NCBI GenBank assembly: GCA_000802045.1
Contig: JUEF01000030.1
Span: forward strand, 11,767-75,766
DNA: 64,000 nt
Reading direction: 5' to 3'
Origin: Peptococcaceae bacterium BICA1-8
GTDB taxonomy: Bacteria > Bacillota > Peptococcia > Peptococcales > BICA1-8
Positions 9,045-41,255 of this stretch are shown in pieces; position 1 is the stretch's first letter, and the number at the start of each line of letters is the position of its first letter. A program made the position numbers and the translations under genes. Below the pieces are notes generated by a model, which ran no database searches, was not told where the DNA came from, and was given only the letters and a program-made list of their open reading frames with translations.

Positions 9045-9890
9045 GCCTCATCTTTCCGAGTCATGGTAGACGCATCGGTTACCCGACGCACCGGGCTCCT
9101 CGAGAATACTCCCTTCCGTAATCGGCTATCATTAATAGCCTCTTGGTATTTTTCGCAGTGAGGTTGGCACCATTTATCCAGCCCTGCATGTCCGGTAGGT
9201 GTTTCCTTTGCAAATTGCGTATTCCCGTTAATCCCTTCCCCATGTAGCCGGCTCTCTCGACCTCATAGTAATATGGATTAATCCGACTTCCTATAGGTCT
9301 TCGGTCAGCCTCTTTGTCGATTGCACATTCCTACCAATAATATTTATATAACTGGAACCTATAGGATCTCCCAAGTTCCGGATACTTCTCTCCATACATG
9401 CCACGTTCTAGGACCCCGACAGACCCTCCAAAATCTCACCAATAGCGATTTTTTTGTATTACTTCCGTGACATTAAACACGTCGTCATCTGCATTTTCCT
9501 CTGTTTCCAGAGTCCACGGTTAACGGGGCTCAATTGTGCTTCAGGGATTACGGTCTCCCTTATGGCCTATATGGTTCTCTAGGTAAAGAATCTAAGCGAT
9601 TCACACAAAAACTAAAAAAAGGTTTTTGGTTCTCTGCTTATGTGTACATTCACCTAGCAGTTACCAGTTTCGGCGCAACACTCGATATGGGTGGCTGGTT
9701 AGGCCTTGCCCAACAGGGACTTTCACCCTGCAAGAAGTACCAAACTTCGCTTGGCGTACTAACGTTCCCGGCATTCCCGACGCTCACCAACCTTAACGCC
9801 TTACCCAATAGGGTGAGTGTGGTCCGGCATGCTACTTGATTAAACTATACCGGACCCGTAAGTGGGAATGGACGTGTTAGCCGGGGTAGC
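9045..9890 (-). ncRNA. GC-rich ORF-free structured segment, family unassigned (degenerate group-II-intron-like or other large ncRNA, or decayed DNA)
   Basis: About 0.85 kb with no credible ORF in six frames and many local hairpins. On the minus strand, GAGCCCGGU-GCGUCGG-GUAA-CCGAUGC (9058-9098) resembles a domain-5-like GNRA hairpin with an AGC base. GGGUGAAAGUCCC lies near 9717-9729. Confidence 0.3.
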
Positions 9891-22494: not shown

Positions 22495-22525
22495 GACTAT
22501 AGACAATAGACTATAGACTATTGTC
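22495..22525. repeat. CTATAGA-type repeat / hairpin between convergent genes
   Basis: GACAATAGactatagaCTATTGTC stem-loop. It overlaps the last codons of ORF 22511..23539. Confidence 0.7.
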
Positions 22526-23539
22526 GGTAGCGGATATGATATCTTGAAATAGACCAGCTCCGCCTTCTTCTACCACGTTATAAACATTAACGGAAACCTT
22601 ACTGGCGATTTCCTGATAAAGCTTCTCCTTATTAACATAGGATGCTTCATAATCATCACTATTAAACCGGTATTTAGGATAGTAGGGATTAATGGTAAGA
22701 GCTATAATCTTGATATGTTTTCTTACTCCTATTTCTATTCCCTTTTGCTTAAGTTGAGCAAAAACATTATGTATTTTGTTTATATCACCAATAACCATAA
22801 GTTTTATGGGGTCAGGGAAAATTAATTTTTTCCCCGAAAGTTTCTCTGCTTTCTCTACCAAATACATTAAGCTCTTCTCACCTATTACCCCTTTAATATA
22901 AACAGTACTGACCTTCTCTAATTGGCTAAGTAATTCATCTACTTCATCACTGCTTAATATTGAATTTAAGCTGACAGTATTATGCTCAATATCTAAAACA
23001 GGATAACTAAAAACCTCTACCATACAATGGGTTTCAAAAGCGAGGTCACTTATTTTACTTTTCCGAGCAGCCCCAGTTGTCAGTATTAATCCCTCAACCT
23101 CAACCATAGGTGCAATCCTATTAAGAGCACCGTCAACTATAATCAAATTTAGATTATGTTGGCGTAGCTTATTTAATACCTGTCTTAGTTCACTGCTTTT
23201 ATTAGGTCCGGCAACGACCAGTCTACCCCCCTTAGTTACCTTGCCCAAGATAATCTTCCCTAATGGAGTAGCAAATTTCGTTACCTCCAAGACCTCTACT
23301 TCTGCAGTGCTAACCTTCAAGCATTTTTCAGCTACGGCCACCAAAACCCCGGGCCAAACTTCGATTTTTGGTTTAGGAAGACCAGTAACATTATCTATGT
23401 CTTCACCATCATAACCGATACTAGTCAGACCCAAGTTTAGCTTCTCATTTTTTTTAACCTCTGCCATTATGAAGGAGGTTGTTGTTGTTTTTCCTGTATT
23501 TTTAGCTGTCCCAGCTATTCCAATAATAATTGTCTGCAT
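22511..23539 (-). CDS. P-loop NTPase of unknown function
   Basis: N-terminal Walker A GIAGTAKNTGKTT. 342 aa. Start lies 3 nt after the stop of the upstream mutase-like gene. Confidence 0.5.
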   Translation of the reverse strand: MQTIIIGIAGTAKNTGKTTTTSFIMAEVKKNEKLNLGLTSIGYDGEDIDNVTGLPKPKIEVWPGVLVAVAEKCLKVSTAEVEVLEVTKFATPLGKIILGKVTKGGRLVVAGPNKSSELRQVLNKLRQHNLNLIIVDGALNRIAPMVEVEGLILTTGAARKSKISDLAFETHCMVEVFSYPVLDIEHNTVSLNSILSSDEVDELLSQLEKVSTVYIKGVIGEKSLMYLVEKAEKLSGKKLIFPDPIKLMVIGDINKIHNVFAQLKQKGIEIGVRKHIKIIALTINPYYPKYRFNSDDYEASYVNKEKLYQEIASKVSVNVYNVVEEGGAGLFQDIISATDNSL

Positions 23540-23541
23540 AG

Positions 23542-25359
23542 TTAACTTTCCTGTACTGTATTACGCCCTGCTCTACCAGGATATGCACCCTCTTCTCTGG
23601 TTCCCAATAAACCATCATAAAGGGCTTGTACAAAATCTCCCTTGGCTAGAACCTGTTTTAAGACCTCCTCAATACCTTTAACTATCTCATTTTGCCATTG
23701 TTCTGCTTTAGAAGTTGGCTTAATTCCTGCATTTCCTAAAAATCTAAAGCTTTCCTCGACCCCTCTTAGGGTATCAATTTTAGAGGGAACACTTATAGGG
23801 CCACCGGAGTAGGCCTCGTCAGCAGAGGCAATAGAAATAGCATCCACTCCTAAGGCTGTTGCCAGTAAAGCATGTAAGGAAGTAGCCATACTTGATTGTA
23901 CTCTATCTTCAGTCTGAGTTAAAAATCCAATGGGTGCTCCAGGCCAGATAGGTGCATCTATGATACTTCTTAGGGCATAGATTTTGGCTGCATTAAAATC
24001 GATATAGTTGTCCTCCATCTGCCCACCAATCATCATTTCCGGTGAATAAGCAAATAAAGGCTGTAAAATTGGTCTTGATCCTAGCTTTATGGCTAAATCA
24101 GCCATAATCAGCATCCCGGCAAAGGCTTTATAAGCAGGAACTCCAGTTAGTTCCTCATTAGTAACAATATCAAACGGCATTTTATATTTGGTTGCATATT
24201 TAATAGCACTGAACCCGTCTACGGTAAGCCGTGCAGGATCGGTGCCTGCAGCTAATGAACCATAGCAAACATTGATTTTTGTGAAATCAGCACCAATTTT
24301 TCCTGCTAAAACTACTGTCTCCGGTGTATTAAGACCTCGATGGGCACGCACCTGCCACAGGGTTGATTTTTCTAAAGACTGATAAATTCTAGCTAAATTA
24401 TTGGGTGTAATTACTGTACCATCCTCCTGATGTGTCAAATCCCCGCCTAAAAAACCCTCCGTCCTAGCACCCCAGGAGGGATCAAAATGGACAACTCCAT
24501 CAGCACCCCAAGACTCACTGACTTTAATATGGCCAATATCCATAAAGGGACATCCTGTTCCATATTGATTCCATACCACTGGTAATTTTCTCGTATGCTG
24601 AAGTTTTTTAACCTTCATTTTCTCTTTTATTTCAGTAATAAACTTCTGATAATTTTCCAGCTCTTCTTTCGTCAACTCTCTGGTTTTAGGATGAATTTTC
24701 CCTTGCAAGTAATATTCCTTAGGTACCTGATCGCAAAGCTCCGGATATTTTTTTAGGAACTCTTGGCTTTCCTGCATTTTGAGAAAAGACTGGTAATCCC
24801 ACAATTCTTCCCTGAGTTTAGCACGTTCCACTCCTGGTGAGGTTTTATTACTAGCCCAGGAAATAATTTGCTGGGAAATCTTATCTAAGAGGTTTCCTAT
24901 AGTTTGATTTACATATGTATATTTGTACGGCGCTGTAAAATCTGTTTTTTCTTTTTTGATTATAGTTTCCTCGGGATTATATTCTCTACCCTCAACAAAG
25001 GCCACTGCCTCTTCAACAGTAGTACCCGGCCCAAAACCGGCATCAAAGCCTAACTCTGCAGCCAATTCTTGACGAATAGCCATACCCCCTATACCAATTT
25101 TAACCTTTTCTCTTAAACCAGCTGCATCAGCTAAATCCACAAATCGGGCTAATAGCTCAGCAACTCCATATCCTAAGGTCCTACTTAATAATAAAGTATT
25201 ATAGTTTTCATCTAAGGCAATGCGAATAATTTCCTCGGGGGGAGTATCAGGTGGTAAAAGCCGAGTTTCTAAGCCTGATTCTTCCAAACCTCTTTTAATC
25301 ATTTTTAACCCAATATCATGAACAGGATCTAACGGTGCTAAAAGTACCTTTCTTTCCAT
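23542..25359 (-). CDS. B12-binding-like domain fused to an aminomutase/mutase-type TIM-barrel domain (putative cobalamin-dependent mutase)
   Basis: The N-terminal ~130 aa have the Rossmann layout of B12-binding domains but DPVHDIG instead of DxHxxG. The C-terminal part has RTEGFLGG... reminiscent of the lysine/ornithine aminomutase large subunit. Confidence 0.4.
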   Translation of the reverse strand: MERKVLLAPLDPVHDIGLKMIKRGLEESGLETRLLPPDTPPEEIIRIALDENYNTLLLSRTLGYGVAELLARFVDLADAAGLREKVKIGIGGMAIRQELAAELGFDAGFGPGTTVEEAVAFVEGREYNPEETIIKKEKTDFTAPYKYTYVNQTIGNLLDKISQQIISWASNKTSPGVERAKLREELWDYQSFLKMQESQEFLKKYPELCDQVPKEYYLQGKIHPKTRELTKEELENYQKFITEIKEKMKVKKLQHTRKLPVVWNQYGTGCPFMDIGHIKVSESWGADGVVHFDPSWGARTEGFLGGDLTHQEDGTVITPNNLARIYQSLEKSTLWQVRAHRGLNTPETVVLAGKIGADFTKINVCYGSLAAGTDPARLTVDGFSAIKYATKYKMPFDIVTNEELTGVPAYKAFAGMLIMADLAIKLGSRPILQPLFAYSPEMMIGGQMEDNYIDFNAAKIYALRSIIDAPIWPGAPIGFLTQTEDRVQSSMATSLHALLATALGVDAISIASADEAYSGGPISVPSKIDTLRGVEESFRFLGNAGIKPTSKAEQWQNEIVKGIEEVLKQVLAKGDFVQALYDGLLGTREEGAYPGRAGRNTVQES

Positions 25360-25599
25360 CTATTTTCCCTCCCCGCTAGTGAACAGCCAACCGTATTTAT
25401 CTCCCGACCTATGAAGGTATGCTCTAGCTCTAATCCTAGCGCCAGGTCCGATAAATTCAATAAATACTAGGTCTACATCGTCAAAGCCTAAATTCTTCAT
25501 CATCTCTAGAGCTATTCCTTTGCCTTGATCCTCACTGTCACAAACTATAAAGGTTTCTACATCCAGCGCATCCATAACCTTTTCCATAAGCTTAGCCAA
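25360..25599 (-). CDS. small protein of unknown function, first gene of the mutase-like operon
   Basis: Probable TTG start with RBS AAGGGGGA. The longer listed ORF would abut the divergent ORF at 25741 with no room for a promoter. Confidence 0.35.
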   Translation of the reverse strand: MAKLMEKVMDALDVETFIVCDSEDQGKGIALEMMKNLGFDDVDLVFIEFIGPGARIRARAYLHRSGDKYGWLFTSGEGK

Positions 25600-25740: not shown

Positions 25741-26381
25741 GTGAAAACCAATGAGTTTATTATTTTAGAGAAGATTCCGCTAGACGAGATAATCAACATT
25801 ACCTGCCAAATGGCTCACAAAGTTGATGATATTGCAGAATATAGTGTTTTGCAGTTAAAACCCAAATCTATTCAAGAATTGCCAAACTTCTGGGGAATAG
25901 TAGTAAAGACAAAAAAAGATATGGGCCTTTTTACAATTGTTCTCAAAAATGCCGGACTAAAAGAACCTTTAATGCTAGAACCTTTATTAGAAAAAAATTT
26001 AGTTATTGAATATCAAAAACTAGGTAGAGTTTTACCACCTCTGGTAACAAAAAGTATGCAGAAAATTATGATTATAGTGGACGGCTTTTGGATATGTTTA
26101 GAGCATATTTAATCTCCACTTTAAAAGAAGCTGGTTGTGAGGTAAGTATTTCCGGACCCTTTTCTATAAAATGGTTGGATAATCTAAGCTTAACGCAGGC
26201 TGATAAAATAATACCCATAGATACCTTTACTTCCTTAAGCAAAGAAATAATAAGCTCTGATGCCGATACATTAATCAGCCTAAACACACCCCTCTGGCAA
26301 AGAAAAATTACATCTCTGATGTGGTCTCAGAAAATAAATAAGTATCTTATAACAGTGAATAATCAATGGCTGGATAGCTAA
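25741..26381 (+). pseudogene. hypothetical gene split by a frameshift at a T-run
   Basis: ORFs 25741..26112 and 26088..26381 overlap. Reading ...KIMIIVDGF then shifting at ggcTTTTgg continues as LDMFRAYLISTLKEAGCEV.... Confidence 0.35.
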
Positions 26382-26455
26382 TGGGCAGACATCGGGGGTC
26401 GGTGACCAGGGACCGGTGCCCGGTGTTCAGGGGACAGTTACTTTGGGGGCATATT

Positions 26456-26817
26456 ATTGCGTCTGATAGTTGCTATTTGGTTAATTTGTTGCGTCTGACA
26501 TTACTTCTTCGTTAAATTGTTGCGTCTGATTTACTTTGGGGCCATTCTCTTGCTTCTGACAAGTATTGTCATTGCGAAGGCGTTAACCTGTGGCAATCTC
26601 TGGGTCGGAGATCGCCACGCTACGCTCGCGATGACAGGATCACTAATGCGAACTAGGAAAGGAGATATACCTGCAAAAGCGCAGGAATATCCCCTTTATT
26701 GTGCGGTTAATTTGGGGGCAAAACTTTGCGTCTGACTAATACTGATTGGTTATTTGTTACGTCTAATCGGTTATCTAATTGGTCTAATAGTACTTCTAAG
26801 TGAGCATTTGCGTCTAA
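26456..26817. repeat. phased array of TTGCGTCTGA-type motifs (31-32-bp period)
   Basis: Copies start at 26456, 26488, 26519 and 26550, then 26725, 26756 and 26806. GTCATTGCGA...TCGCGATGAC inverted segment at 26568-26634. Confidence 0.7.
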
Positions 26818-26942
26818 TAAATTTTAATATTACAAAAAGATAAATACAGCATACAAAAAAGCTTGATTTAACACCGTTTTCATATATAAATCGTTGTAAC
26901 ATATTCGAAATATCATAGTATTTTTATATTACGGAGTAATAT

Positions 26943-27069
26943 GTAGGCTGTTAAAAAATATTAGATAGCTAGGCGCAAAAAGGGGGCAAAACCGGAGGCG
27001 TACTAAAGTACGTTGAGGATTTTGACCCCTTTTGGGTACGACGCTAGATGATGTTTTTTAGCAGCCTAC
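26943..27069. repeat. ~125-nt long-hairpin element, copy A
   Basis: Three-stem hairpin with conserved boxes AGCTAGGCG, CCGGAGGCGTA, TACGTTGAGGAT and ACGACGCTAG. It ends 3 nt from the stop codon at 27073. Confidence 0.75.
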
Positions 27070-27072
27070 TTT

Positions 27073-28461
27073 TTACATGAGGAATATTGCCATGACAGTA
27101 GCTCCCAACAATCCTAACATAACGGGGATAAAGTTTCTCCGTGCTAATTCCATCGGGTCAACACCACAAATAGCAGCAACTGGAATTAATCCCCAAGGTA
27201 CTACTGTTCCGCCACCTATCCAGACAGAAGACAATTGTCCTAAGGCTGCTAAGGTTCCTTTGTCAACAGCAATAGCACTGCCAAAGGTTTGGGCCAATGA
27301 GCCTACTAAAGGTAGCCCTGAGAATCCCGAACCATCCAAACCGGTAATTCCACCAATTATTACTTGAATAAAAGCTACCGGTATCCTACTTAAAGGAACA
27401 TTATTAGCTAACGCATAACCCAAATCGGTCAAAAGACCAGTTGCTTGTTCACCTAGGATAACTTTAGCTGTTCCCTCTGAACCCAAGAAGAAGAAACCTC
27501 CGATTACAATTACAGGAGCAAAGATTTTAATTCCGAACATAAAGCCATCCCGGATGTAATCAGTAATTTTCTCCAGAGAATCAGTGCCAAATTGGAGAAT
27601 AGCTGCCAAGCACATAATAGCTGCTGCCGTACCTCCAATTAAAGCAGTAGCATCTCCACCCCGTATTTCGTATAAATACATGAATAGTACATCCAAACCG
27701 AAGGCTACTGGAATCAAAATTGCAATAAAGTAAGACACCCAGGTAAATTTCTGATTAGCCTTGGCTTCCTGATCTTTGGCCATTTGTTTTTGTTCAACTT
27801 TTATTGCCTCCTGATTTTTATTTATGTCTTTTTTGAGCATGATAAATGCTGTCACACTAGCAATAATTGAACAAGTTAACCATAAAGGAATACTTGGTCC
27901 GATTACTCCTGTTGCATCGGCAAACCCTGCTGATTTAGCAGTAATAGCCGGAGCACCTTGAATAAAGTAATCTGATGATAAAGCAATACCATGACCAAAT
28001 ATATTCATAGAAATTGCTGCACCAATAACCGGAAGTCCTGCTCTAACAGCTACTGGAAGAACAATGGCACCAATTAATGCTACAGCTGGTGATGGCCAAA
28101 CAAACCAGGATACTAGAAGCATAGCAATACCTAAAACCCAAAAAGCTATATTTGCGTTAACCATTGCCCGTGAGGCTGGCTGCATTACAATATAATCAGC
28201 ACCGACATCAGCTAAAGCTTTAGACATAGCTACAACCAGGGATATAATGGCAATAATTCCCCAGAACTCATTACCGGCAGCAATTAAAGCATTATATACT
28301 ACCTGTAGCCCTCCGATAAGACTGCCTTTTGCTGATAATCCAATAACAAATAAGCCTATAAAACAAGGCAATACCGTATCCCTGCGCAAAATCATGGTAA
28401 CCAAAACTATTAATACCATGAAAACATATATCCAATGTAATGAGGTTAATTGTACTTCCAC
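27073..28461 (-). CDS. polytopic permease (ion-transporter superfamily-like; substrate unknown)
   Basis: 462 aa, more than 10 TM, with a central hydrophilic loop. Resembles DcuC/YfcC/NhaC-type carriers. Confidence 0.6.
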   Translation of the reverse strand: MEVQLTSLHWIYVFMVLIVLVTMILRRDTVLPCFIGLFVIGLSAKGSLIGGLQVVYNALIAAGNEFWGIIAIISLVVAMSKALADVGADYIVMQPASRAMVNANIAFWVLGIAMLLVSWFVWPSPAVALIGAIVLPVAVRAGLPVIGAAISMNIFGHGIALSSDYFIQGAPAITAKSAGFADATGVIGPSIPLWLTCSIIASVTAFIMLKKDINKNQEAIKVEQKQMAKDQEAKANQKFTWVSYFIAILIPVAFGLDVLFMYLYEIRGGDATALIGGTAAAIMCLAAILQFGTDSLEKITDYIRDGFMFGIKIFAPVIVIGGFFFLGSEGTAKVILGEQATGLLTDLGYALANNVPLSRIPVAFIQVIIGGITGLDGSGFSGLPLVGSLAQTFGSAIAVDKGTLAALGQLSSVWIGGGTVVPWGLIPVAAICGVDPMELARRNFIPVMLGLLGATVMAIFLM

Positions 28462-28482
28462 TTTTTTCCCCCCTAATATGCC

Positions 28483-29763
28483 TTATACTACTGATTGATT
28501 ATAGAAGTTTGTCATTCCCGCTTCTTCTACTTTTTTCTTAATTTCGTTAAGATCGGTAGTATAGAAATTCAATTCTTTCATCCGTTGAAAATATACAGAA
28601 CCGGAGAAGGTATATTTTTTGGTTAGACCTTCTTCTGTAGCCATTTGTTCATTAACATATGCTATAGCATCACCGATTACTAGGCTAGTAGGAATCTGTT
28701 TTAAGTCTTTTTTAGCGGCATAACGAACTGCATTATTGCCTGCTAGGCTGCCAGTTACAATAGCCTCGGTATGACCTACTAACAAACCGGCTTTTTCGCC
28801 TCCGCAAAACAGATTATCTACACCCTTAGTTTTTAAGTAATTATCTCTTGGCGAAAGTGCAAGATAACGCATGGAGTTTCCAATCCCTCCGGAATACGGA
28901 TCTTCAAAACGTGCATTTTCAAAACCTGGAATCTGTCTTAAAGTATCCAAATGATAATAAGGTGTCATTAATTTGGCATGCCCTGTATCTAAGAGAATAA
29001 CGTTTTCCTTAAATTCCTGAAGTGCATATTGCTGACAGGCCTTCGACTCTAACGCCCCTTCTTTCTGGAGTTTCTGGGGAATAGGTATAACTGCAACCCC
29101 TTTAGAATTTAATTCTTTAACGATACTTTCTGCCAATGATTCCTTATGTAATTTACAAGAACCACTCATTGCTCCAACAGAGCCATCAGCCTTTTTACCT
29201 TTAAATTCTGTAACACCACATTTTGTTGCTAATTCAATTCTAGGTCCAAAGGTTGGGCAACGATAAATACACATAGCACAGCCATTACCGTATTTTAGGC
29301 AATTTCCCTGCGGCCCAGCCGTACCACTGGTTTCGACAAAAACGTCACCTGTATATTCGTTACCATCTTGGTCAACAACAGCGACAATTTTTTTTCCGTC
29401 CATTTTTACATCTTTAACTCGACACTGCAATTTATATTTTACCCCTGCTTCATCGAGCTTTCTCCGCACTGCCGGCTCTATAGCAGCTACATCATATAGT
29501 GATGCATGCTTATGTCCAGGAAACTCCATGTTTTTATGACGGGCGGTTTCATCAGTTGCATTAAAAAGTTCATTTCCACCCATCGCAATTGACTCTTCAG
29601 TTGCGACAAAACGGCCGTTATTTCGCATTATTCCACCGACTAAACCAGTACCTAAGAACATGTCTGTTCTTTCTAAGACAAGAACGTCAGCTCCTGCCTT
29701 TTTAGCAGTCAAACCAGCAGCACAGCCAGCCCAACCACCTCCAACAACAACAACTTTAACCAT
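28483..29763 (-). CDS. FAD-dependent oxidoreductase
   Basis: N-terminal VVVVGGGWAGCAAG dinucleotide-binding motif. 426 aa. CAMCIYRCP cysteine cluster. Confidence 0.7.
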   Translation of the reverse strand: MVKVVVVGGGWAGCAAGLTAKKAGADVLVLERTDMFLGTGLVGGIMRNNGRFVATEESIAMGGNELFNATDETARHKNMEFPGHKHASLYDVAAIEPAVRRKLDEAGVKYKLQCRVKDVKMDGKKIVAVVDQDGNEYTGDVFVETSGTAGPQGNCLKYGNGCAMCIYRCPTFGPRIELATKCGVTEFKGKKADGSVGAMSGSCKLHKESLAESIVKELNSKGVAVIPIPQKLQKEGALESKACQQYALQEFKENVILLDTGHAKLMTPYYHLDTLRQIPGFENARFEDPYSGGIGNSMRYLALSPRDNYLKTKGVDNLFCGGEKAGLLVGHTEAIVTGSLAGNNAVRYAAKKDLKQIPTSLVIGDAIAYVNEQMATEEGLTKKYTFSGSVYFQRMKELNFYTTDLNEIKKKVEEAGMTNFYNQSVV

Positions 29764-29806
29764 TCAGAAATCTCCTTTCATTTGTCCTTTGGACAGGCTA
29801 ACGTAA

Positions 29807-29861
29807 GGCTAAGGTTGAGGTTGAGTAAAAGATGCGAAACGAAGTGAGTGAAACCTTAGCC
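29807..29861. repeat. hairpin repeat (GGCTAAGGTT...AACCTTAGCC) with a GCGAAACGAAGTGAGTGAAACC core
   Basis: 10-bp stem. Core shared with 19985-20035, 59673-59708 (inverted) and 63459-63524. Confidence 0.65.
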
Positions 29862-29867
29862 TAGTTT

Positions 29868-31328
29868 TTATAGTAATCCTGCGTGTTTACATACAATTTC
29901 AATCAGTTTAACTTGGGCTTTTACGGCATAGCGCATTTTATCTGGAATTAGATTGCCATGGTCATCGGTTGTACCTAGACCAGTAGAAATGTAAATATTT
30001 CCGTCATAAGCAATAGTTGGGATAACACCAAACTTAGTCATTCCTGTTTGGAAGAGATTTGTGCCTGAATACATATCTTCAATTGGGAAGATAGGTATAC
30101 CCATTTGACCATCCTTCCAGGTACCTTCATAGTTAACCTCAACTGCAGTCGAATTGTATACCTTTGTGATTTTAATACCATCTCTAAACTTAGCTGGGAT
30201 ATTTTTAAACTCTTCAACAACAATGTCGTACATGTCATCTACTGGCTTTGTCAGCACTTCGGGGTTATCTCTTAGAACTTTCAGAGCCTGAATTTGACTT
30301 AATAAGGCTTCTTTACCAGGGTCAAAGGTTACATATGCTGCTTTTCCATAAGAAGAAGGAGTTCCCCAACGATCACCGTGCATACCCATTGACCGGCGAA
30401 TTTGAACCATTACATCCTCTTTACCGATGATAAGACCACTGGTTGCTGCTCCAGTTGCTTTATCCATACTATAGATCATTACATCACAATCAATTTTAGT
30501 TGGATCTATGCCAACAAAGGGAAGACCCCAAGCATTGTCAATTACATAAGGCACATTATAGGAATGGGCTAAATCGGCCATATATTTACATAATAGAGGA
30601 GTTCCGTCCTCATCCTGTACGCCATAACCATAACCTGGTGATGGATAGCCTAATGAGGTAATTCCAGTTAAGAAGTTTTCATGGATTTCTGCATGTAAAG
30701 CCAGCTTTTCAATAGATGCTTCAGGATCAACTTCTGATAACAAGATTGCTGGCCATTGCTTAATACCATGAACCGGATATTTTGCTCCTTCCAATGGAAC
30801 AAAGACAACATCAGTGTTATTTTGCCGCTTACCATAAAAGCCTAATTCACCAGCAGTTGAACCTCTATCAGCAACGATATCCTTGTATTTTGGTGGGAAG
30901 GGACGCCCATATCCGCCTTGGTGATGGATGTGTTTTTCATAGGGTGCTAGATAACGAGCACGGTAATTGTCACCACGACCTAAGTTCGGTGGAGTAAACA
31001 AGGTATCAAAAGTACACCAAAGTCCTGCTTCACAGGTACTTGTTGCTGCTGCTTCCCATTCATCACCATATACATCCTTAACCAATTCTCTGATTTGATC
31101 CATAAGTACTGCTAAGGGAATAACTTCCTTCGCACCTTTTTCGCTGTATTCCATAATATCGTGTCTTAAAGGTGCCGGACATCCAGAGATCGCTCCAGTC
31201 AGACCGAATTTTCCCCTGATCTCAGGGGGAATACCAATTTCATCTGCTGCCTTTGCAGCATCTGCATAAATATCTGCCACTTTAGCATGCAATTGCTTGT
31301 ACATTTGGTATTTATATTTTGCTACCAT
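29868..31328 (-). CDS. fold-type-I PLP-dependent enzyme, SelA/DgaE-like
   Basis: 486 aa. YSMDKATGAATSG resembles the S-x-D-K PLP-lysine motif of the SelA family. Confidence 0.5.
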   Translation of the reverse strand: MVAKYKYQMYKQLHAKVADIYADAAKAADEIGIPPEIRGKFGLTGAISGCPAPLRHDIMEYSEKGAKEVIPLAVLMDQIRELVKDVYGDEWEAAATSTCEAGLWCTFDTLFTPPNLGRGDNYRARYLAPYEKHIHHQGGYGRPFPPKYKDIVADRGSTAGELGFYGKRQNNTDVVFVPLEGAKYPVHGIKQWPAILLSEVDPEASIEKLALHAEIHENFLTGITSLGYPSPGYGYGVQDEDGTPLLCKYMADLAHSYNVPYVIDNAWGLPFVGIDPTKIDCDVMIYSMDKATGAATSGLIIGKEDVMVQIRRSMGMHGDRWGTPSSYGKAAYVTFDPGKEALLSQIQALKVLRDNPEVLTKPVDDMYDIVVEEFKNIPAKFRDGIKITKVYNSTAVEVNYEGTWKDGQMGIPIFPIEDMYSGTNLFQTGMTKFGVIPTIAYDGNIYISTGLGTTDDHGNLIPDKMRYAVKAQVKLIEIVCKHAGLL

Positions 31329-31355
31329 CTTAAAATAAAACCTCCTTTTATTAAT

Positions 31356-31377
31356 GGCTAGTGGCTAGTCACTAGTC
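31356..31377. repeat. ACTAGT-containing heptamer array inside an operon spacer
   Basis: ggctagtggctagtcactagtc, between the RidA gene and the PLP-enzyme gene. Confidence 0.75.
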
Positions 31378-31415
31378 TTTATAATTCTCAATTTTTAAAT
31401 CTCAATTCTCAGTTG

Positions 31416-31877
31416 TTACTTAACCTTTACTATCATTTCAACTTCACAAGTGGAATTTAGGGGAAGTTCATTAACCCCCACTGCGGCCCGGGCGTGTTGC
31501 CCTTTTTCTCCAAAAATTTCACCGATTAGCTCACTAGCTCCATTAATGACTTTAGGCTGCATATCAAAACCGTCACTAGAAGCAACAAAACCAGTTACTT
31601 TAACAATCTGCTCAATTTTATCAAGGTCACCGACTACACCCTTAATTACACTCAGACAGTTTAATGCACATAATTTGGCTGCCTGATATGCATCCTCTTC
31701 TTTTACATCTTTACCTACCTTTCCTTTATATTTCAATTCACCATTTAGAAAAGGTATTTGCCCTGAGGTATACACATAGTTGTCTACTTTAACTGCAGGG
31801 ACATAAGCTGCGACAGGTTTAGGTGCTTCCGGGATTTCTAAACCCATGCTTTTAATTTTTTCTTCGACTTTGGACAA
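31416..31877 (-). CDS. RidA/YjgF family reactive-intermediate deaminase
   Basis: 153 aa. YjgF/chorismate-mutase-like pattern (YVYTSGQIP...ARAAVGVNELPLNSTCEVE). Confidence 0.85.
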   Translation of the reverse strand: MSKVEEKIKSMGLEIPEAPKPVAAYVPAVKVDNYVYTSGQIPFLNGELKYKGKVGKDVKEEDAYQAAKLCALNCLSVIKGVVGDLDKIEQIVKVTGFVASSDGFDMQPKVINGASELIGEIFGEKGQHARAAVGVNELPLNSTCEVEMIVKVK

Positions 31878-31947
31878 TTTACTAACCTCCTTTCAAAATT
31901 TCTATAAATAAACATTTCCCTAATAGTTTTCTTAAGGAATCAAACAT

Positions 31948-32391
31948 TTATTCTCGTGATTTTTTACAAATAATTTCCATTCCCACCTCCGCATCAAGTT
32001 CCACTCCTGTTTTCCTTTCATCTGCCTTAATAACAATATTTAAATGATTAGGCATATGTGTTTCATCAAAACCTGCAATCTGACCAACTAATTTACCATC
32101 CAGATAAATTTCATCACCATTTATCATGACACTTCCCTGCTGAACCTCAAAAAAACCTAAATACGAAATACTGTCTACATTTTTCCCTGGCCCTGCTTCT
32201 TTTTCATCAGTAAAGATTAACTCGTGAATTTCATTTTTATTTAAAGCTCGAGATATTGGAGTAATTAGCTTTAAATTTCGGCCTTCTAGCTTACCATCTA
32301 AAACGACAACTAGTCTCCCTTTAATATCCTGTTTCTTTGCATAAGGATTGTTTTTAAAAAGACCCGCCTTATAAGGATCTATAACAGTCAA
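31948..32391 (-). CDS. small beta-rich protein, first gene of the operon (glucitol-IIA-like fold?)
   Basis: 147 aa with a TTG start. No firm family. Weak resemblance to PTS-IIA-glucitol-type barrels. Confidence 0.3.
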   Translation of the reverse strand: MTVIDPYKAGLFKNNPYAKKQDIKGRLVVVLDGKLEGRNLKLITPISRALNKNEIHELIFTDEKEAGPGKNVDSISYLGFFEVQQGSVMINGDEIYLDGKLVGQIAGFDETHMPNHLNIVIKADERKTGVELDAEVGMEIICKKSRE

Positions 32392-36256: not shown

Positions 36257-36829
36257 TCACCTCCCTTTATTAAAAATTGGTAGTAAAGTTAGTGACTGAT
36301 ATAAAATGCCTAACATTGCACTAATATTTATCAGCAAATTGTCATTTAAAATTGTAAATATTAAAATAAAAATAATAAACAGAACAGAGGAAAGTCTCAG
36401 CTTATTCCGTAAGGTTTGGGAATGAATAGGTTTGGCTTCGGAGTCAACGGGTGCAAATAAAAATACAATAATCAAACATAGCAAAATGAAAATCATATTA
36501 ATCCAGTTAGTAGATCCAACCTGCAATAAATAATTAGCTAGGACTCCAATTAAACTGTAGATAATTGCACCCAAACCTAGGCATTTTAAGGGTGTATCAA
36601 AGTGAGCGCCTCCGGAAACTCTACGTAAAACACCGCCTGATATAGCTGCTATGGCTGCAGGCAAAAGAGCGTTAAAGACAAAACCTAATAATAAAATAGC
36701 CAGAAAACCAACTACACCAAGCAAGAACATCTCAATGGCATAAGAAACAATTTCATTTTTTTCTTCATCATAGTTTAAATCCTTAGTAATAAAACCCGCT
36801 AAGGATTTACTAAAATTAGAAAGCATCAC
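36257..36829 (-). CDS. agrB: AgrB family AIP-processing membrane peptidase
   Basis: 190 aa, 4-6 TM, conserved RR.SGG.H segment (LRRVSGGAHF). Confidence 0.85.
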   Translation of the reverse strand: MMLSNFSKSLAGFITKDLNYDEEKNEIVSYAIEMFLLGVVGFLAILLLGFVFNALLPAAIAAISGGVLRRVSGGAHFDTPLKCLGLGAIIYSLIGVLANYLLQVGSTNWINMIFILLCLIIVFLFAPVDSEAKPIHSQTLRNKLRLSSVLFIIFILIFTILNDNLLINISAMLGILYQSLTLLPIFNKGR

Positions 36830-38919: not shown

Positions 38920-39909
38920 TTACGCTTCTTGTAGCTTCTTTATAACATTCGTTATATCAAGATTTACTGGACACTTCACTACACAGCGGCCACAGCCGGT
39001 ACAGAGGAGCATATTGTACCTTTCCGGGAAGTAGCGCAGCTTGTGTAAGAAACGGTTTCTGACCCGTTCCTTTTTACCGGGTCTGGGCTGATGACCACCA
39101 GCCATAACAGTGTATTCATCAACCATACAGCAGTCCCAGCAGCGGATTTTGGTACCATCTTCTCCTCTGACCTCACTTGCGATATCAAAGCAGTGACAGG
39201 TCGGACAGACATAGGCACAAGTGCTGCAGTTTAAGCATTTCCGGGAAATATCATCCCAAATAGGGTGGTCAAACATATCCTTTAATTTTTCCGGCAAGCC
39301 TTCTACATCAGCGGTAAGATTAAACTCTCCTATAGAAGGAATAGCTGCATCTTCCTCTGCAAACATACCCGAAACCTTACTTAATACCTCTTGTCCTCTT
39401 TCAGTGATTCCTTCAAAGCCCAATTTTTCCCCTAAATCATAGGCTTGAATATCTGCGCCCTGACCTTTTTGGGGGTCGATACCCATTGAAGTACAGAAAC
39501 AGGACTCCATAGGTTTTACACAGCTTAAAGCAATCAAAATACTTTTATCCCGCTTGTCTTGATAAAAGGGATCAACAAAGCCTTTGGTTAGAAAAACCTG
39601 ATCTAAGCAGTCAATACTTTTCATATCACAGGAACGGACACCAAAAATAACCTGCAATTTTTCGTCCTGAGGTATTTCTTCAATTTCCAAAGATTGATCC
39701 TTGGATTTGAATTTATACATTTCCTCAGTCTGAGGAAAGAAAATATCCTTGGGAGGCATAGTCACATTTTCCTCTAGAGCCAATTCCAAATTCTCACGGT
39801 AGGCAGCAAATCTAGAAACCCCTTCTAATTTTGCCGGGACTAATACTTTATATTCTTTTGCAAGTTGTTCCAACAACTCAGGCAGCTTTGCTTTAAGAAT
39901 AGTCTTCAT
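38920..39909 (-). CDS. flxB: 4Fe-4S protein, FlxB/AsrA-like
   Basis: 329 aa. CLNCSTCAYVCPTCHC and CTGCGRCVVKCP cluster motifs. N-terminus like anaerobic sulfite reductase subunit A. Confidence 0.7.
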   Translation of the reverse strand: MKTILKAKLPELLEQLAKEYKVLVPAKLEGVSRFAAYRENLELALEENVTMPPKDIFFPQTEEMYKFKSKDQSLEIEEIPQDEKLQVIFGVRSCDMKSIDCLDQVFLTKGFVDPFYQDKRDKSILIALSCVKPMESCFCTSMGIDPQKGQGADIQAYDLGEKLGFEGITERGQEVLSKVSGMFAEEDAAIPSIGEFNLTADVEGLPEKLKDMFDHPIWDDISRKCLNCSTCAYVCPTCHCFDIASEVRGEDGTKIRCWDCCMVDEYTVMAGGHQPRPGKKERVRNRFLHKLRYFPERYNMLLCTGCGRCVVKCPVNLDITNVIKKLQEA

Positions 39910-39921
39910 CGTTGCACCTCC

Positions 39922-40821: not shown

Positions 40822-41255
40822 TGGGCATCCCTCAACTTCCTGTTAGGCCCCATAGCCCTAATTTCTTCAGTTATTTGGGTAACAACCTGTTGAAATTTCG
40901 GACCCTCGGAACCAGATATCCATCTGGCCTGGAATCGTTCAGGGTCAATACCTACATATTGTAAAAGTCTTTGCATCAACAAATACCTTCTGCGGGTGAA
41001 ATAATTGCCGCTTACATAATGACAGTCACCAGGATGGCAGCCTGCCACTAAGACCCCATCAATTCCCCGTTGAAAAGCCCTAATTACAAATTGGGGATTA
41101 ACCCGACCAGAACAAGGCACTCTTAGAATTCTAATATTAGGCGGGTACTGTAGGCGGCTTAATCCTGCCAGGTCAGCCCCGGCATAGGTACACCAGTTAC
41201 AGGCAAAAACCAGGATTTTAGGTTCCCAATTTTGTGGCATCTCCGTTATAGACAT
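40818..41255 (-). CDS. flxD: MvhD-type (methyl-viologen-reducing hydrogenase delta) protein, FlxD
   Basis: ILVFACNWCTYAGADLAG...RVPCSGRV...VAGCHPGDCHY is the canonical MvhD pattern. Confidence 0.85.
   Translation of the reverse strand: MSITEMPQNWEPKILVFACNWCTYAGADLAGLSRLQYPPNIRILRVPCSGRVNPQFVIRAFQRGIDGVLVAGCHPGDCHYVSGNYFTRRRYLLMQRLLQYVGIDPERFQARWISGSEGPKFQQVVTQITEEIRAMGPNRKLRDAQ

What the first reader, a model, noticed from the sequence alone, without database searches (positions are those of the whole stretch)
22511..25599. Three-gene operon: small protein, B12-domain/aminomutase-like fusion, P-loop NTPase
The 605-aa protein begins with a B12-binding-type Rossmann domain whose signature reads DPVHDIG, one residue longer than the canonical DxHxxG. 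It continues into a large domain with segments (RTEGFLGG..., AGTDPARLTVDG...) that recall the TIM-barrel subunits of lysine/ornithine aminomutases. It is preceded by a 79-aa protein. A 342-aa Walker-A protein follows 3 nt later and could play a chaperone or reactivase role, as MeaB- or MutL-type partners do for other B12 enzymes. I cannot assign it to glutamate mutase, Kam, Ora or acyl-CoA mutase families from the sequence alone. It may be an uncharacterised cobalamin-dependent isomerase system.
Basis: partly seen in the sequence, partly recalled or inferred. Interest (0 to 1): 0.55.

Follow-up and report, generated by a model that had tools for sequence, protein, structure and literature searches.

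The report
Rearranged B12 mutase with unknown substrate
These three genes encode a previously undescribed vitamin-B12-dependent radical isomerase, built from the same parts as lysine 5,6-aminomutase but joined differently and apparently lacking its vitamin-B6 site; it sits in a gene cluster conserved across many anaerobes, which points to an unknown breakdown pathway.

Summary
On the minus strand, three abutting genes encode a 79-aa protein, a 605-aa protein and a 342-aa protein.

- **605-aa protein:** a KamE-type cobalamin (Rossmann) domain fused in front of a KamD-type accessory region and TIM barrel. No Pfam, NCBIfam or PDB sequence search recognises the barrel. Foldseek (KamD, E~1e-14), hhalign (68%, E 5e-5) and BLASTP to divergent members (E 3e-8) do.
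- **79-aa protein:** a free-standing copy of the KamE N-terminal "dimerisation" domain. This rests on several weak but concordant lines of evidence.
- **342-aa protein:** a full-length KamB homologue.

It is not lysine 5,6-aminomutase:
- KamA, Kdd and KamC are absent from all 84 related loci.
- The PLP-binding lysine lies in an insertion that this family lacks.
- Four of five aligned PLP-contacting side chains are replaced.

The trio is embedded in a conserved cluster: a GntR/FCD-like regulator, DUF6917, RidA, a SelA/DgaE-like PLP enzyme, a flavoprotein with a cysteine motif, and an unclassifiable membrane protein.

Best reading: an uncharacterised AdoCbl-dependent isomerase with its own chaperone, feeding a deaminating catabolic route. 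The substrate is unknown. It is a new variant of a known kind, of moderate to high interest.

The parts
25360..25599 (-). 79-aa small subunit: probably a free-standing homologue of the KamE N-terminal / OraE 'dimerisation' (OAM_dimer) domain
   Evidence: The TTG start follows a Shine-Dalgarno sequence. The gene was found in at least 50 of 84 loci, an undercount. The AF2 model has pLDDT 86 with a beta-alpha-beta-beta core. The top Foldseek PDB hits are KamE 9q1a_B, OraE 3kp1_A, KamE 8t0v_C and 1xrs_B; Foldseek probability is 0.97-1.0 but E is only 0.07-0.3. hhalign to KamE residues 35-78 gives 65%, E 6e-5. Pfam OAM_dimer gives E 0.13. A profile search of PDB sequences did not find KamE.
24985..25359 (-). 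aa 1-125 of the 605-aa protein: cobalamin-binding Rossmann domain of the KamE/OraE type
   Evidence: PF02310 scores 51.2 bits. The best NCBIfam partial hits are Lys_5_6_beta and OraE. hhalign to the KamE family gives 99.3%, E 5e-20, 35% identity. Foldseek matches 8t0v_D at 33% identity, rmsd 2.3.
25309..25329 (-). DPVHDIG (aa 11-17): variant cobalt-ligand motif. His14 is the predicted lower axial ligand. Asp lies at His-3 and Pro at the canonical Asp position
   Evidence: D11, P12, V13, H14, D15 and G17 are invariant in A1. The motif occurs in 74 of 84 members and none has DxHxxG.
23545..24984 (-). aa 126-605 of the 605-aa protein: linker, KamD-like N-terminal helical accessory region, (beta/alpha)8 barrel and C-terminal helices. 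This is the predicted substrate and radical chamber
   Evidence: No Pfam, NCBIfam or PDB sequence hit. Only 62 hits among 1.84 billion representatives, all from the same tight family. The AF2 model has pLDDT 80 and pTM 0.78. Foldseek finds KamD 1xrs_A/8t0v_A/9q1a_C at E 7e-15 to 1e-13, then GlmE, OraE, IcmF and MCM. hhalign to KamD gives 55-68%, E 1e-4 to 5e-5, with colinear motifs. BLASTP of KamD against members L147/L148 gives 23% identity over 380 aa, E 3e-8.
22511..23539 (-). 342-aa P-loop NTPase: a full-length homologue of KamB, which NCBI names the lysine 5,6-aminomutase reactivase subunit. Predicted cofactor chaperone or reactivase
   Evidence: NF052386 scores 223.8 bits against a cut-off of 210; a true KamB scores 433.8. 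hhalign of the family against KamB gives 100%, E 6e-68, over residues 3-323. Identity to KamB in kam loci is 29-33% over most of the length. The gene is present in 67 of 84 loci.
23486..23512 (-). Walker A motif GTAKNTGKT (aa 10-18 of the 342-aa protein), of the G-x5-GK[ST] type
   Evidence: 61 of 67 family members carry GTAKNTGKT. KamB proteins carry GMxKNxGKT.
25741..26381 (+). Two overlapping ORFs (123 aa and 97 aa) that together resemble one Cys-rich protein of about 271-277 aa, which recurs beside the operon in relatives. In the window it is probably a frameshifted, N-terminally truncated pseudogene
   Evidence: Family 'F277' lies within 10 kb in 5 of 24 well-flanked loci. The window region is syntenic with L085 at 83% identity. 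The frameshift was judged by eye from the sequences.
26978..27033 (-). 27-nt inverted repeat just downstream of the membrane-protein gene. It looks like a terminator and would separate the upstream five-gene unit from the mutase operon
   Evidence: The 430 bp at 26638-27070 are absent from the close relative L085.
27073..28461 (-). 462-aa polytopic membrane protein, a candidate substrate transporter with no known family
   Evidence: No Pfam, NCBIfam or PDB match, even with a profile. It is 59% identical to the gene next to the Sporomusa mutase. It lies in 9 of 24 well-flanked loci.
28483..29763 (-). 426-aa FAD-dependent oxidoreductase (GIDA/MnmG-like fold) with a C-x6-C-x2-C-x3-CP motif that could bind an Fe-S cluster
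   Evidence: PF01134 scores 120.8 bits. The motif was read in the sequence. The gene lies in 16 of 24 well-flanked loci.
29868..31328 (-). 486-aa divergent fold-type-I PLP enzyme (SelA/DgaE/Cys-Met-metabolism-like). Asp264 (DNAWG) and Lys290 (SMDK) are invariant
   Evidence: Aminotran_5 scores 23.3 bits. TIGR01437 (DgaE family) gives E 8e-6. A profile search of the PDB finds O-acetylhomoserine sulfhydrylase at 2.5e-6 and D-glucosaminate-6-P ammonia-lyase 7lc0 at 1e-4. The gene lies in 19 of 24 well-flanked loci.
31416..31877 (-). 153-aa RidA/YjgF-family protein, an enamine/imine deaminase
   Evidence: PF14588 scores 100 bits and PF01042 66 bits. The gene lies in 15 of 24 well-flanked loci.
31948..32391 (-). 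147-aa DUF6917 protein, the first gene of the upstream unit. Function unknown
   Evidence: PF21891 scores 166 bits. No PDB sequence match. The gene lies in 17 of 24 well-flanked loci. A terminator-like site for the preceding gene lies at 32641-32617.

Best explanation
The three genes encode an uncharacterised adenosylcobalamin-dependent radical isomerase that is homologous to lysine 5,6-aminomutase, with the parts distributed differently among the polypeptides.

**How the parts map onto Kam.** In Kam, the alpha chain KamD carries the accessory region and TIM barrel. The beta chain KamE carries a dimerisation domain followed by the Rossmann B12 domain. Here the dimerisation domain is a separate 79-aa protein, and the Rossmann domain is fused to the N-terminus of the KamD-like chain. 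The third gene is a KamB-type P-loop NTPase.

**Proposed mechanism (inferred, not shown).**
- The Rossmann domain holds the cobamide base-off/His-on through His14.
- Substrate binding in the barrel brings the cofactor over the barrel mouth.
- Co-C homolysis gives a 5'-deoxyadenosyl radical, which abstracts a substrate hydrogen and starts a 1,2-rearrangement.
- The 79-aa protein holds the oligomer together.
- The NTPase loads or exchanges damaged cofactor after suicide inactivation.

**Likely physiological role.** The enzyme is the committing step of a conserved catabolic gene set: a GntR/FCD-like regulator, a membrane carrier, a SelA/DgaE-like PLP enzyme, RidA, a flavoprotein and DUF6917. The rearranged amino-acid-like carboxylate would then be deaminated to a 2-oxo acid.

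**PLP.** The Kam/Ora PLP-anchoring residues are gone. The chemistry is therefore more likely PLP-independent (a carbon-skeleton or eliminase-type shift), or uses PLP bound in a different way, than a classical Kam-type amino shift.
For: **Shown here**
- The B12 domain is homologous to KamE.
- The barrel is homologous to KamD by three independent routes. Matching motifs include GADGVVHFD...WGARTEGF against GADIIAVIR...YGATTEGF, and YG.L...R..VD.
- In the same hhalign setting, other cluster families tested as controls (DUF6917, RidA, FAD, PLP486, F277) score at most 7.5% against the Kam families.
- Out of 350,542 PDB chains, the small protein's best structural matches are the KamE and OraE dimerisation domains.
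- The NTPase is homologous to KamB over its full length.
- The genes abut (0 nt and 2 nt apart). The B12 gene and the NTPase lie together in 22 of 24 well-flanked loci.
- The conserved neighbours are documented.
- The family is under strong constraint: mean column identity is 75%, with more than 200 invariant residues across Clostridia, Negativicutes and heliobacteria.
- The cluster also occurs in a Treponema genome.

**From the literature**
[quoted passage not shown] That gives a reason for a reactivating partner.
Against: - There is no biochemical evidence at all.
- The type of cofactor (Ado- or methyl-cobamide) cannot be read from sequence.
- The canonical Asp of DxHxxG is replaced by Pro.
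- The barrel-to-KamD relationship is remote (15-23% identity, hhalign probability only 55-68%), so residue-level statements about the lost PLP site depend on a weak alignment.
- Tyr366, the equivalent of the PLP-stacking Tyr263, is retained. That could mean PLP is still used.
- The MutS-like KamC ATPase, which accompanies every KamB in true kam loci, is absent. The 'reactivase' role is therefore transferred from a name, not demonstrated.
- The small protein's structural matches have non-significant E-values (0.07-0.3).
- The catabolic reading rests only on gene neighbourhood.
Confidence: 0.72

Rival explanations
1. It is simply lysine (or beta-lysine) 5,6-aminomutase with fused and split subunits plus its KamB reactivase subunit. 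This is what automatic annotation suggests: Sporomusa ovata carries 'L-beta-lysine 5,6-aminomutase beta subunit', and UniRef names the Zhaonella partner 'lysine 5,6-aminomutase reactivase subunit'.
For: The closest relatives of all three proteins are KamE, KamD and KamB. The 342-aa protein passes the NF052386 cut-off. The source names are listed.
Against: - The 605-aa protein has no hit to NF052384 and scores only 49.5 bits on NF052385, whose cut-off is 280. True KamD and KamE score 950 and 410 bits.
- KamA, Kdd and KamC are absent from the window and from all 84 family loci.
- The PLP lysine, present in 78 of 78 KamE sequences at His+11, falls in an 8-residue insertion missing here.
- Arg184, Ser238, Arg268 and the Gly187-Ser189 phosphate loop are not conserved.
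- The neighbourhood (DUF6917, SelA-like PLP enzyme, RidA, flavoprotein) differs from the lysine-fermentation cluster.
Confidence: 0.05
2. It is a Kam/Ora-type PLP- and AdoCbl-dependent aminomutase acting on a different amino or diamino acid. PLP would be bound through a relocated lysine, for example the invariant Lys361 at the end of a barrel strand five residues before Tyr366. The product would carry a beta-leaving amino group, which the SelA/DgaE-like lyase and RidA then remove.
For: The nearest homologues are the two PLP-dependent aminomutases. The stacking Tyr is conserved as Tyr366. Lys361, Lys411 and Lys459 are invariant in the barrel region. The RidA and PLP-lyase neighbours fit a deamination route.
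Against: The phosphate-binding loop is deleted and both phosphate arginines are replaced: Arg184 aligns with Asp293 and Arg268 with Ala371. The pyridine-N ligand Ser238 aligns with Arg341. No known B12 aminomutase carries the PLP lysine on the barrel. I could not inspect model coordinates to see whether Lys361 faces the cavity.
Confidence: 0.2
3. It is not a radical enzyme. It would be a corrinoid-dependent methyltransferase or corrinoid shuttle, with a B12 domain plus a substrate-activating barrel and an ATP-dependent activase, as acetogens use for methylated substrates.
For: - Weaker hits of the B12 domain to MtgC, MtbC and MtaC corrinoid proteins (PDB 1y80, 4jgi, 3ezx).
- The hosts include acetogens (Sporomusa, Ca. 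Formimonas).
- Methyltransferase MT1 subunits are also barrels; this last point is from my own knowledge.
Against: - The best matches of the B12 domain are KamE and OraE.
- The barrel's top structural matches are the catalytic subunits of AdoCbl isomerases (KamD, GlmE, OraE, IcmF, MCM), with motif-level identity to KamD.
- There is no B12-binding_2 cap domain hit.
- The partner is KamB-like, not RamA-like.
- There is no methyl-acceptor methyltransferase in the cluster.
Confidence: 0.05

Closest known systems
Lysine 5,6-aminomutase KamDE with its KamB/KamC reactivase (kdd-kamA-kamB-kamC-kamD-kamE clusters, e.g. locus L019 of Tepidibacter formicigenes; PDB 1xrs, 8t0v, 9q1a)
   Same: All three proteins have their nearest relative here.
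- Rossmann domain: 35-38% identical to KamE.
- Barrel and accessory region: colinear with KamD.
- Small protein: resembles the KamE N-terminal domain.
- NTPase: resembles KamB over its full length, with the same G-x-x-K-N-x-GKT loop.
- Expected in common: base-off/His-on cobamide and a barrel radical chamber.
   Different: - The domain partition differs: [dimerisation domain] + [Rossmann-accessory-barrel] instead of [accessory-barrel] + [dimerisation-Rossmann].
- The Asp of DxHxxG is shifted by one position.
- The PLP-lysine insertion is absent and four of five aligned PLP-contacting side chains are replaced.
- There is no KamC, KamA or Kdd.
- The pathway neighbours are different.
- Scores lie far below the NCBIfam cut-offs.
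D-ornithine 4,5-aminomutase OraSE (PDB 3kow, 3kp1)
   Same: The Rossmann domain aligns at E 2e-11. Foldseek matches the barrel at E 5e-10, rmsd 5.3 over about 370 columns. The small protein superposes on the OraE internal dimerisation domain with rmsd 1.2 over 52 columns. A C-terminal motif is shared: GDFVxALYxGxLG against GGYFNAVEQGFF.
   Different: OraE is barrel-dimerisation-Rossmann in one chain, the reverse order. The PLP Lys629 lies in a 4-residue insertion (IDIK) that is missing here. NF040743 scores 37 bits against a cut-off of 800. I found no ornithine-pathway genes such as ord or ortAB among the recurrent neighbours.
Glutamate mutase GlmES (PDB 1ccw, 1cb7, 6h9e), a PLP-independent carbon-skeleton mutase
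   Same: It is the second-best structural match of the barrel (E 1e-10). It is PLP-independent, as this enzyme may be. The barrel rim here carries several invariant arginines (R299, R338, R341, R377). From my own knowledge, GlmE uses such residues to hold carboxylates.
   Different: There is no sequence-level match to GlmE. The B12 domain scores well below the MutS/GlmS cut-offs (19.9 bits against 110). There is no methylaspartate ammonia-lyase or GlmL/MutL-type chaperone in the cluster.
IcmF (fused isobutyryl-CoA mutase; PDB 4xc6)
   Same: It sets a precedent for an N-terminal B12 domain preceding the substrate barrel in one chain, and for a dedicated P-loop chaperone (Foldseek hits).
   Different: In IcmF the chaperone is a G3E GTPase fused between the domains, and the substrate is an acyl-CoA. 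Here the NTPase is a separate KamB-type protein and nothing suggests a CoA ester. NF045497 scores only 9.7 bits.

Membership tests
Lysine 5,6-aminomutase (KamD/KamE) | The alpha subunit reaches the NCBIfam NF052384 equivalog cut-off (600 bits) | tested here: not met
   NF052384 is not among the hits at E<=1 for the 605-aa protein. A true KamD scores 950 bits.
Lysine 5,6-aminomutase (KamD/KamE) | The beta subunit reaches the NF052385 cut-off (280 bits) | tested here: not met
   It scores 49.5 bits, over aa 38-122 only. A true KamE scores 410 bits.
Lysine 5,6-aminomutase (KamD/KamE) | PLP-binding lysine on the Rossmann domain, 11 residues after the cobalt-ligating His (Lys144-beta) | tested here: not met
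   D.H..G.{7}K occurs in 78 of 78 KamE sequences. The lysine lies in an 8-residue insertion absent from this family. The same holds against OraE Lys629.
Lysine 5,6-aminomutase (KamD/KamE) | PLP contacts in the barrel: Arg184, Gly187-Ser189 loop, Ser238, Tyr263, Arg268 (listed in PMC3958899) | tested here: not met
   In the hhalign alignment, Arg184 aligns with Asp293, the loop is deleted (9 residues), Ser238 aligns with Arg341 and Arg268 with Ala371. Only Tyr263 is kept, as Tyr366. Caveat: the alignment probability is 55-68%, although per-column confidence is high across the strand 1-3 region.
Lysine 5,6-aminomutase (KamD/KamE) | Lysine-fermentation gene context (kamA, kdd, kamC) | tested here: not met
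   BLASTP and tblastn with KamA, Kdd and KamC from L019 gave 0 hits in the window and in 84 family loci.
D-ornithine 4,5-aminomutase (OraS/OraE) | The NF040743 cut-off (800 bits) and a barrel-dimerisation-Rossmann order in one chain | tested here: not met
   It scores 37.3 bits, on the Rossmann domain only. The domain order is reversed.
Glutamate mutase (GlmS/GlmE) | A sigma subunit or domain reaching NF002612/TIGR01501, and an epsilon subunit recognisable by sequence | tested here: not met
   The scores are 19.9 and 16.1 bits against cut-offs of 110 and 135.8. GlmE is matched only by fold, at E 1e-10.
AdoCbl-dependent isomerases (Rossmann B12 domain plus substrate barrel) | A cobalamin-binding Rossmann domain with a His ligand | tested here: met
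   PF02310 scores 51.2 bits against 32.1. His14 is invariant and aligns with the KamE His. The motif is a variant: Asp at His-3 and Pro at His-2.
AdoCbl-dependent isomerases (Rossmann B12 domain plus substrate barrel) | A substrate barrel homologous to those of known mutases | tested here: met
   The top 14 Foldseek hits are chains of KamD, GlmE, OraE or IcmF. hhalign and BLASTP link the barrel to KamD.
AdoCbl-dependent isomerases (Rossmann B12 domain plus substrate barrel) | Use of adenosyl-cobamide and radical catalysis | not testable with these tools
   This needs spectroscopy or an activity assay.
KamB (NF052386, 'lysine 5,6-aminomutase reactivase subunit') | Reaches the curated cut-off and aligns over the full length | tested here: met
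   It scores 223.8 bits against 210, in two stretches. hhalign gives 100%, E 6e-68, over residues 3-323 against 11-335. It is an outlier, because a true KamB scores 433.8 bits.
KamB (NF052386, 'lysine 5,6-aminomutase reactivase subunit') | Encoded next to its partner ATPase KamC (MutS-like) and to kamDE | tested here: not met
   KamC gave 0 hits in the window and in 84 loci. In kam loci the order is kamB-kamC-kamD-kamE.
KamB (NF052386, 'lysine 5,6-aminomutase reactivase subunit') | NTP-dependent reactivation of the inactivated mutase | not testable with these tools
   I found no structure and no open paper on KamB.
Corrinoid proteins of methyltransferase systems | An N-terminal helical cap (B12-binding_2) and the family cut-offs (e.g. 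TIGR02370, NF047996) | tested here: not met
   There is no B12-binding_2 hit. The scores are 22-31 bits against cut-offs of 215-370.

The most novel reading that the evidence does not exclude
This family founds a new class of cobamide-dependent radical isomerases. It descends from the Kam/Ora aminomutases but has discarded their PLP site, and it catalyses a rearrangement with no characterised counterpart. That rearrangement would be the entry step of an unrecognised fermentation or assimilation route for an amino-acid-like carboxylate, conserved from Clostridia and Negativicutes to a Treponema genome. Its KamB-type NTPase would work without the MutS-like KamC, revealing a minimal form of this little-studied reactivase. 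It could conceivably account for an 'orphan' B12-dependent activity reported biochemically but never assigned to a gene, such as the disputed leucine 2,3-aminomutase. That particular assignment is a long shot, about 3%.
Probability: 0.35. Interest if true: 0.8.

Novelty: new variant of a known kind. Interest (0 to 1): 0.62.

Why it matters
Only about a dozen reaction types are known for adenosylcobalamin-dependent isomerases, and each new one has taught new radical chemistry (this count is from my own knowledge).

- **A distinct, unrecognised family.** It is conserved at 52-95% identity across the fetched loci and has no curated profile for its catalytic domain. It is annotated only as 'cobalamin B12-binding domain-containing protein', or mislabelled as a lysine aminomutase subunit or a KamB reactivase subunit.
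- **A ready experimental handle.** The conserved regulator, carrier and downstream PLP, RidA and flavoprotein genes can be used to look for the substrate.
- **A natural experiment on Kam.** Comparison with KamDE asks what happens to the 'PLP lock' that controls radical generation when the PLP lysine is removed and the Rossmann domain is tethered covalently to the barrel.
- **A practical warning.** The NF052386 KamB cut-off currently captures this paralogous family.

Tried and rejected
- **Sequence searches of the C-terminal 480 aa.** Pfam, NCBIfam and PDB searches, single-sequence and profile, found nothing.
- **Exhaustive phmmer over 1.84 billion representatives.** It found only the family itself.
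- **hhalign with -glob.** It produced a meaningless 6-column alignment and was discarded.
- **PDB profile searches.** The small protein returned no Kam/Ora chain and nothing below E 0.065. DUF6917 matched only a designed repeat protein, which is spurious. The membrane protein gave no hits.
- **NCBIfam on 19 membrane-protein homologues.** Nothing meaningful.
- **Rfam over the whole window.** No cobalamin or other riboswitch; the only hit is a group II intron fragment far away.
- **Small ORFs of 40-43 aa upstream of DUF6917** in the window, L001 and L002. They are not conserved and were dismissed.
- **Weak HMMER similarity** between the barrel segment GAGTDPARLTVDG and the KamE TGTDAHTVGIDA loop (scores -1.2 to 0.5). 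I treated it as chance.
- **Literature searches** for KamB/reactivase, DUF6917, aminomutase + Sporomusa, and RidA + aminomutase. None found a paper on this family. One search was wasted on 'kamC' matching 'Kamchatka'.
- **Limits of the tools.** I could not inspect model coordinates, so I could not examine active-site geometry, for example whether Lys361 or Arg341 faces the cavity. I could not predict the small + large complex. No GlmE, Mgm or EutB sequences were on hand for profile comparison or a phylogeny.

Full report
**1. The observation**

Three co-directional genes lie on the minus strand.
- A 79-aa ORF at 25599..25360. It starts at TTG, 7 nt after AAGGGGGA. The start matches MAKLMEKV in a 95%-identical relative.
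- A 605-aa ORF at 25359..23542. Its ATG directly follows the preceding TAG.
- A 342-aa ORF at 23539..22511, two bases further on.

The genes are not chance ORFs. I fetched 84 loci from genomes and metagenomes that carry the 605-aa gene at 52-95% identity. Among them, 67 have the 342-aa gene and at least 50 have the small gene. The small-gene count is an undercount, because my ORF caller prunes overlapping short ORFs.

**2. The 605-aa protein, N-terminal part**

- Pfam finds only a B12-binding domain, at aa 11-119 (51.2 bits against a cut-off of 32.1).
- Its best partial matches are the lysine 5,6-aminomutase beta subunit and OraE, in NCBIfam and in PDB sequences.
- A profile-profile alignment to 78 KamE sequences taken from genuine kam loci gives 99.3% probability, E 5e-20 and 35% identity.
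- His14 aligns with the cobalt-ligating His of KamE.
The sequence is D-P-V-H-D-[IV]-G, with Pro at the canonical Asp position and Asp one residue earlier. It occurs in 74 of 84 members, and none has DxHxxG.

**3. The 605-aa protein, C-terminal 480 residues**

Sequence methods are blind to this region.
- There is no Pfam, NCBIfam or PDB match, even with a family profile.
- An exhaustive phmmer search of 1.84 billion representative proteins returns only 62 hits. All are fragments or one full-length member of the same tight family.

An AlphaFold2 model (pLDDT 80, pTM 0.78) shows a helical region followed by a (beta/alpha)8 barrel and C-terminal helices. Foldseek against the PDB gives this order of hits:
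- the KamD alpha subunit of lysine 5,6-aminomutase first (1xrs_A, 8t0v_A, 9q1a_C; E 7e-15 to 1e-13; TM about 0.6 normalised on the target);
- then glutamate mutase GlmE;
- then OraE;
- then IcmF and methylmalonyl-CoA mutase.

To test homology at the sequence level, I fetched real kam clusters using a KamE fragment. NCBIfam confirmed the order kdd-kamA-kamB-kamC-kamD-kamE. I then built family alignments.
- hhalign of the C-terminal region against KamD gives 55% probability (22 sequences) and 68% (79 sequences), with E 1e-4 to 5e-5. The alignment is colinear over more than 400 columns.
- Conspicuous shared motifs are TSPGVERA against TTVAVERT, GADGVVHFD...WGARTEGF against GADIIAVIR...YGATTEGF, GLNTPE against GLCMPE, and YGSL...R..VD against YGIL...R..ID.
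- In the same setting, other cluster families tested as controls (DUF6917, RidA, FAD, PLP486, F277) score 0.1-7.5% against the Kam families.
- Plain BLASTP of KamD against the most divergent family members (L147, L148) gives 23% identity over 380 residues, E 3e-8.

I conclude that the domain is a true but remote homologue of the KamD accessory region and barrel.

**4. The 79-aa protein**

It is conserved, with twelve invariant residues across 38 sequences. Sequence evidence for its identity is weak but consistent:
- Pfam OAM_dimer, E 0.13;
- hhalign to residues 35-78 of KamE, its N-terminal domain, at 65% probability and E 6e-5;
- a profile search of PDB sequences that did not recover KamE.

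Its AlphaFold2 model is confident (pLDDT 86). The best Foldseek matches among 350,542 PDB chains are KamE (9q1a_B), the internal dimerisation domain of OraE (3kp1_A; rmsd 1.2 over 52 columns), and the isolated N-terminal domain of KamE (8t0v_C, 1xrs_B). The E-values are only 0.07-0.3, as is usual for so small a domain.

Three independent weak signals point to the same rare domain. That makes it likely, about 75%, that the small protein is the detached N-terminal domain of a KamE-like ancestor. The system would then be KamE and KamD cut at a different place: [dimerisation domain] + [Rossmann-accessory-barrel].

**5. The 342-aa protein**

- It exceeds the curated cut-off of NF052386, 'lysine 5,6-aminomutase reactivase subunit KamB' (223.8 bits against 210).
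- The family aligns with genuine KamB over the full length (100%, E 6e-68). Identity is 29-33% over most of the length.
- The P-loop is the same unusual type: GTAKNTGKT against GMxKNxGKT.
- It is still an outlier, since a true KamB scores 434 bits.
- Its normal partner, the MutS-like ATPase KamC, is absent from the window and from all 84 loci.

**6. Why it is not lysine 5,6-aminomutase**

- KamA, Kdd and KamC are absent everywhere.
- The scores lie far below the equivalog cut-offs.
- The PLP-binding lysine is present at His+11 in 78 of 78 KamE sequences. It lies in an 8-residue insertion that this family lacks. The same is seen against OraE Lys629.

I mapped the published PLP contacts of KamD (PMC3958899) through the hhalign alignment. 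The numbering offset was verified on the R-T-T-G-Q-S motif.

| KamD residue | Role | Aligned position here |
|---|---|---|
| Arg184 | phosphate | Asp293 (invariant) |
| Gly187-Ser189 loop | phosphate | inside a 9-residue deletion |
| Ser238 | pyridine N | Arg341 (invariant) |
| Arg268 | phosphate | Ala371 |
| Tyr263 | ring stacking | Tyr366 (retained) |

They depend on a remote alignment, although the strand 1-3 region has high per-column confidence. I read this as loss or relocation of the PLP site. The invariant Lys361, five residues before Tyr366, is a candidate for relocation.

**7. Surroundings**

In Sporomusa ovata the genes are contiguous: DUF6917, RidA, a 486-aa protein, a GIDA-like flavoprotein, the NTPase, the small protein, the B12 protein and a 459-aa membrane protein.

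The same genes lie in the window at 27073-32391. They are separated from the mutase operon by a terminator-like inverted repeat, a repeat-rich stretch of about 430 bp that is absent from a close relative, and a probable pseudogene.

Counts within 10 kb of the B12 gene, in the 24 loci with at least 8 kb on both sides:

| Neighbour | Loci out of 24 |
|---|---|
| NTPase | 22 |
| Small protein | at least 19 |
| 486-aa protein | 19 |
| DUF6917 | 17 |
| GntR/FCD-like regulator (judged by eye from its sequence; not in this window) | 16 |
| Flavoprotein | 16 |
| RidA | 15 |
| Membrane protein | 9 |

A Treponema genome has the minimal set: DUF6917, the 486-aa protein, the small protein, the B12 protein and the NTPase.

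The 486-aa protein is a divergent fold-type-I PLP enzyme. Asp264 and Lys290 (S-M-D-K) are invariant. Its nearest relatives are O-acetylhomoserine sulfhydrylase and the SelA-like D-glucosaminate-6-phosphate ammonia-lyase. The flavoprotein carries a C-x6-C-x2-C-x3-CP motif, read in the sequence.

A dedicated regulator, a carrier, a PLP enzyme of the lyase type and an enamine/imine deaminase together suggest catabolism of an amino-acid-like carboxylate. The mutase would make the substrate amenable to deamination. This is inference from context only.

**8. Mechanism proposed (inferred)**

- The cobamide is bound base-off/His-on by His14.
- Substrate sits in the barrel, whose rim carries invariant Arg299, Arg338, Arg341, Arg377, His277, His291, His340, Asp293 and Tyr366.
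- Co-C homolysis and hydrogen abstraction start a 1,2-shift.
- The small subunit mediates assembly.
- The KamB-type NTPase exchanges cofactor after suicide inactivation, a known property of 5,6-LAM (PMC12429584).

The Rossmann domain is covalently tethered and has no PLP lysine. The 'PLP lock' that keeps Kam and Ora open in the resting state therefore cannot operate in the same way.

**9. Comparison, novelty and verdict**

The system works like, and descends from, the Kam/Ora/Glm group of B12 isomerases. It fails every membership test for lysine 5,6-aminomutase, ornithine 4,5-aminomutase and glutamate mutase. Its partner passes the KamB score test but not the context test.

I found no paper on it. 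Public annotation is generic or wrong.

I classify it as a new variant of a known kind. My confidence is 0.72 that it is a cobamide-dependent radical isomerase system with its chaperone. I put 0.35 on the more novel reading: a new, PLP-independent reaction type heading an unknown pathway. Interest: 0.62.

Noticed in passing
window 26438-26825: Five to seven degenerate direct repeats of about 30-32 nt, each ending in TTGCGTCTGA (or TTGCTTCTGA / TTGCGTCTAA). They lie in an intergenic stretch, part of which (26638-27070) is missing from a close relative that is 83-92% identical across the surrounding segments (L085). They could be regulator or iteron sites, or a decayed element.
   Followed up: partly
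window 25741-26381 (+): Two overlapping ORFs (123 aa and 97 aa) together match one Cys-rich protein of about 271-277 aa with no Pfam domain. That protein recurs on the opposite strand beside the mutase operon in several relatives (L004, L085, L086, L093, L097, L103). In this window it looks frameshifted and N-terminally truncated, so it is probably a pseudogene.
   Followed up: partly
window 25360-25362 / 25357-25359: The small gene's TAG stop is followed directly, in the same frame, by the ATG of the 605-aa gene. In L001 and L002 the two genes instead overlap by 4 nt.
   Followed up: no
window 28483-29763 (-): The GIDA/MnmG-like flavoprotein of the cluster carries GNCLKYGNGCAMCIYRCP (C-x6-C-x2-C-x3-CP), a possible Fe-S site. 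Some loci (L105, L111, L116) have a second paralogue a few kb downstream.
   Followed up: no
window 27073-28461 (-): A 462-aa polytopic membrane protein, conserved next to the cluster, has no match in Pfam, NCBIfam or PDB even with a 19-sequence profile. It may be an undescribed transporter family.
   Followed up: partly
NCBIfam NF052386 (KamB) versus window 22511-23539: The curated KamB cut-off (210 bits) admits this paralogous family (224 bits), whose loci lack kamC, kamD and kamE. UniRef already names the Zhaonella homologue (P0252) 'lysine 5,6-aminomutase reactivase subunit', which is probably an over-annotation.
   Followed up: yes
window 9404-9723 (-): The only Rfam hit in the window is a group II intron D1-D4 domain (RF02005, 83 bits).
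   Followed up: no
window 38920-44738 (-): A run of six genes with Fe-S domains (Fer4 families, a CCG Cys-rich domain), an FAD/NAD-binding plus Fe-S protein, and an FlpD (MvhD-like) protein. It looks like a heterodisulfide-reductase/Mvh-type electron-transfer module, consistent with an anaerobic Firmicute host.
   Followed up: no
window 36257-36829 (-): An AgrB-family protein (quorum-sensing peptide maturation) lies next to a 155-aa ORF with no Pfam match.
   Followed up: no
P0303 and P0317: P0317 is named by NCBI as coming from Clostridiaceae bacterium BRH_c20a and is 76% identical to the window's small protein. P0303 (94% identical) has a longest contig of the same length as those carrying that organism's B12 protein P0001 and NTPase P0183. 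That organism may therefore carry two copies of the system.
   Followed up: no
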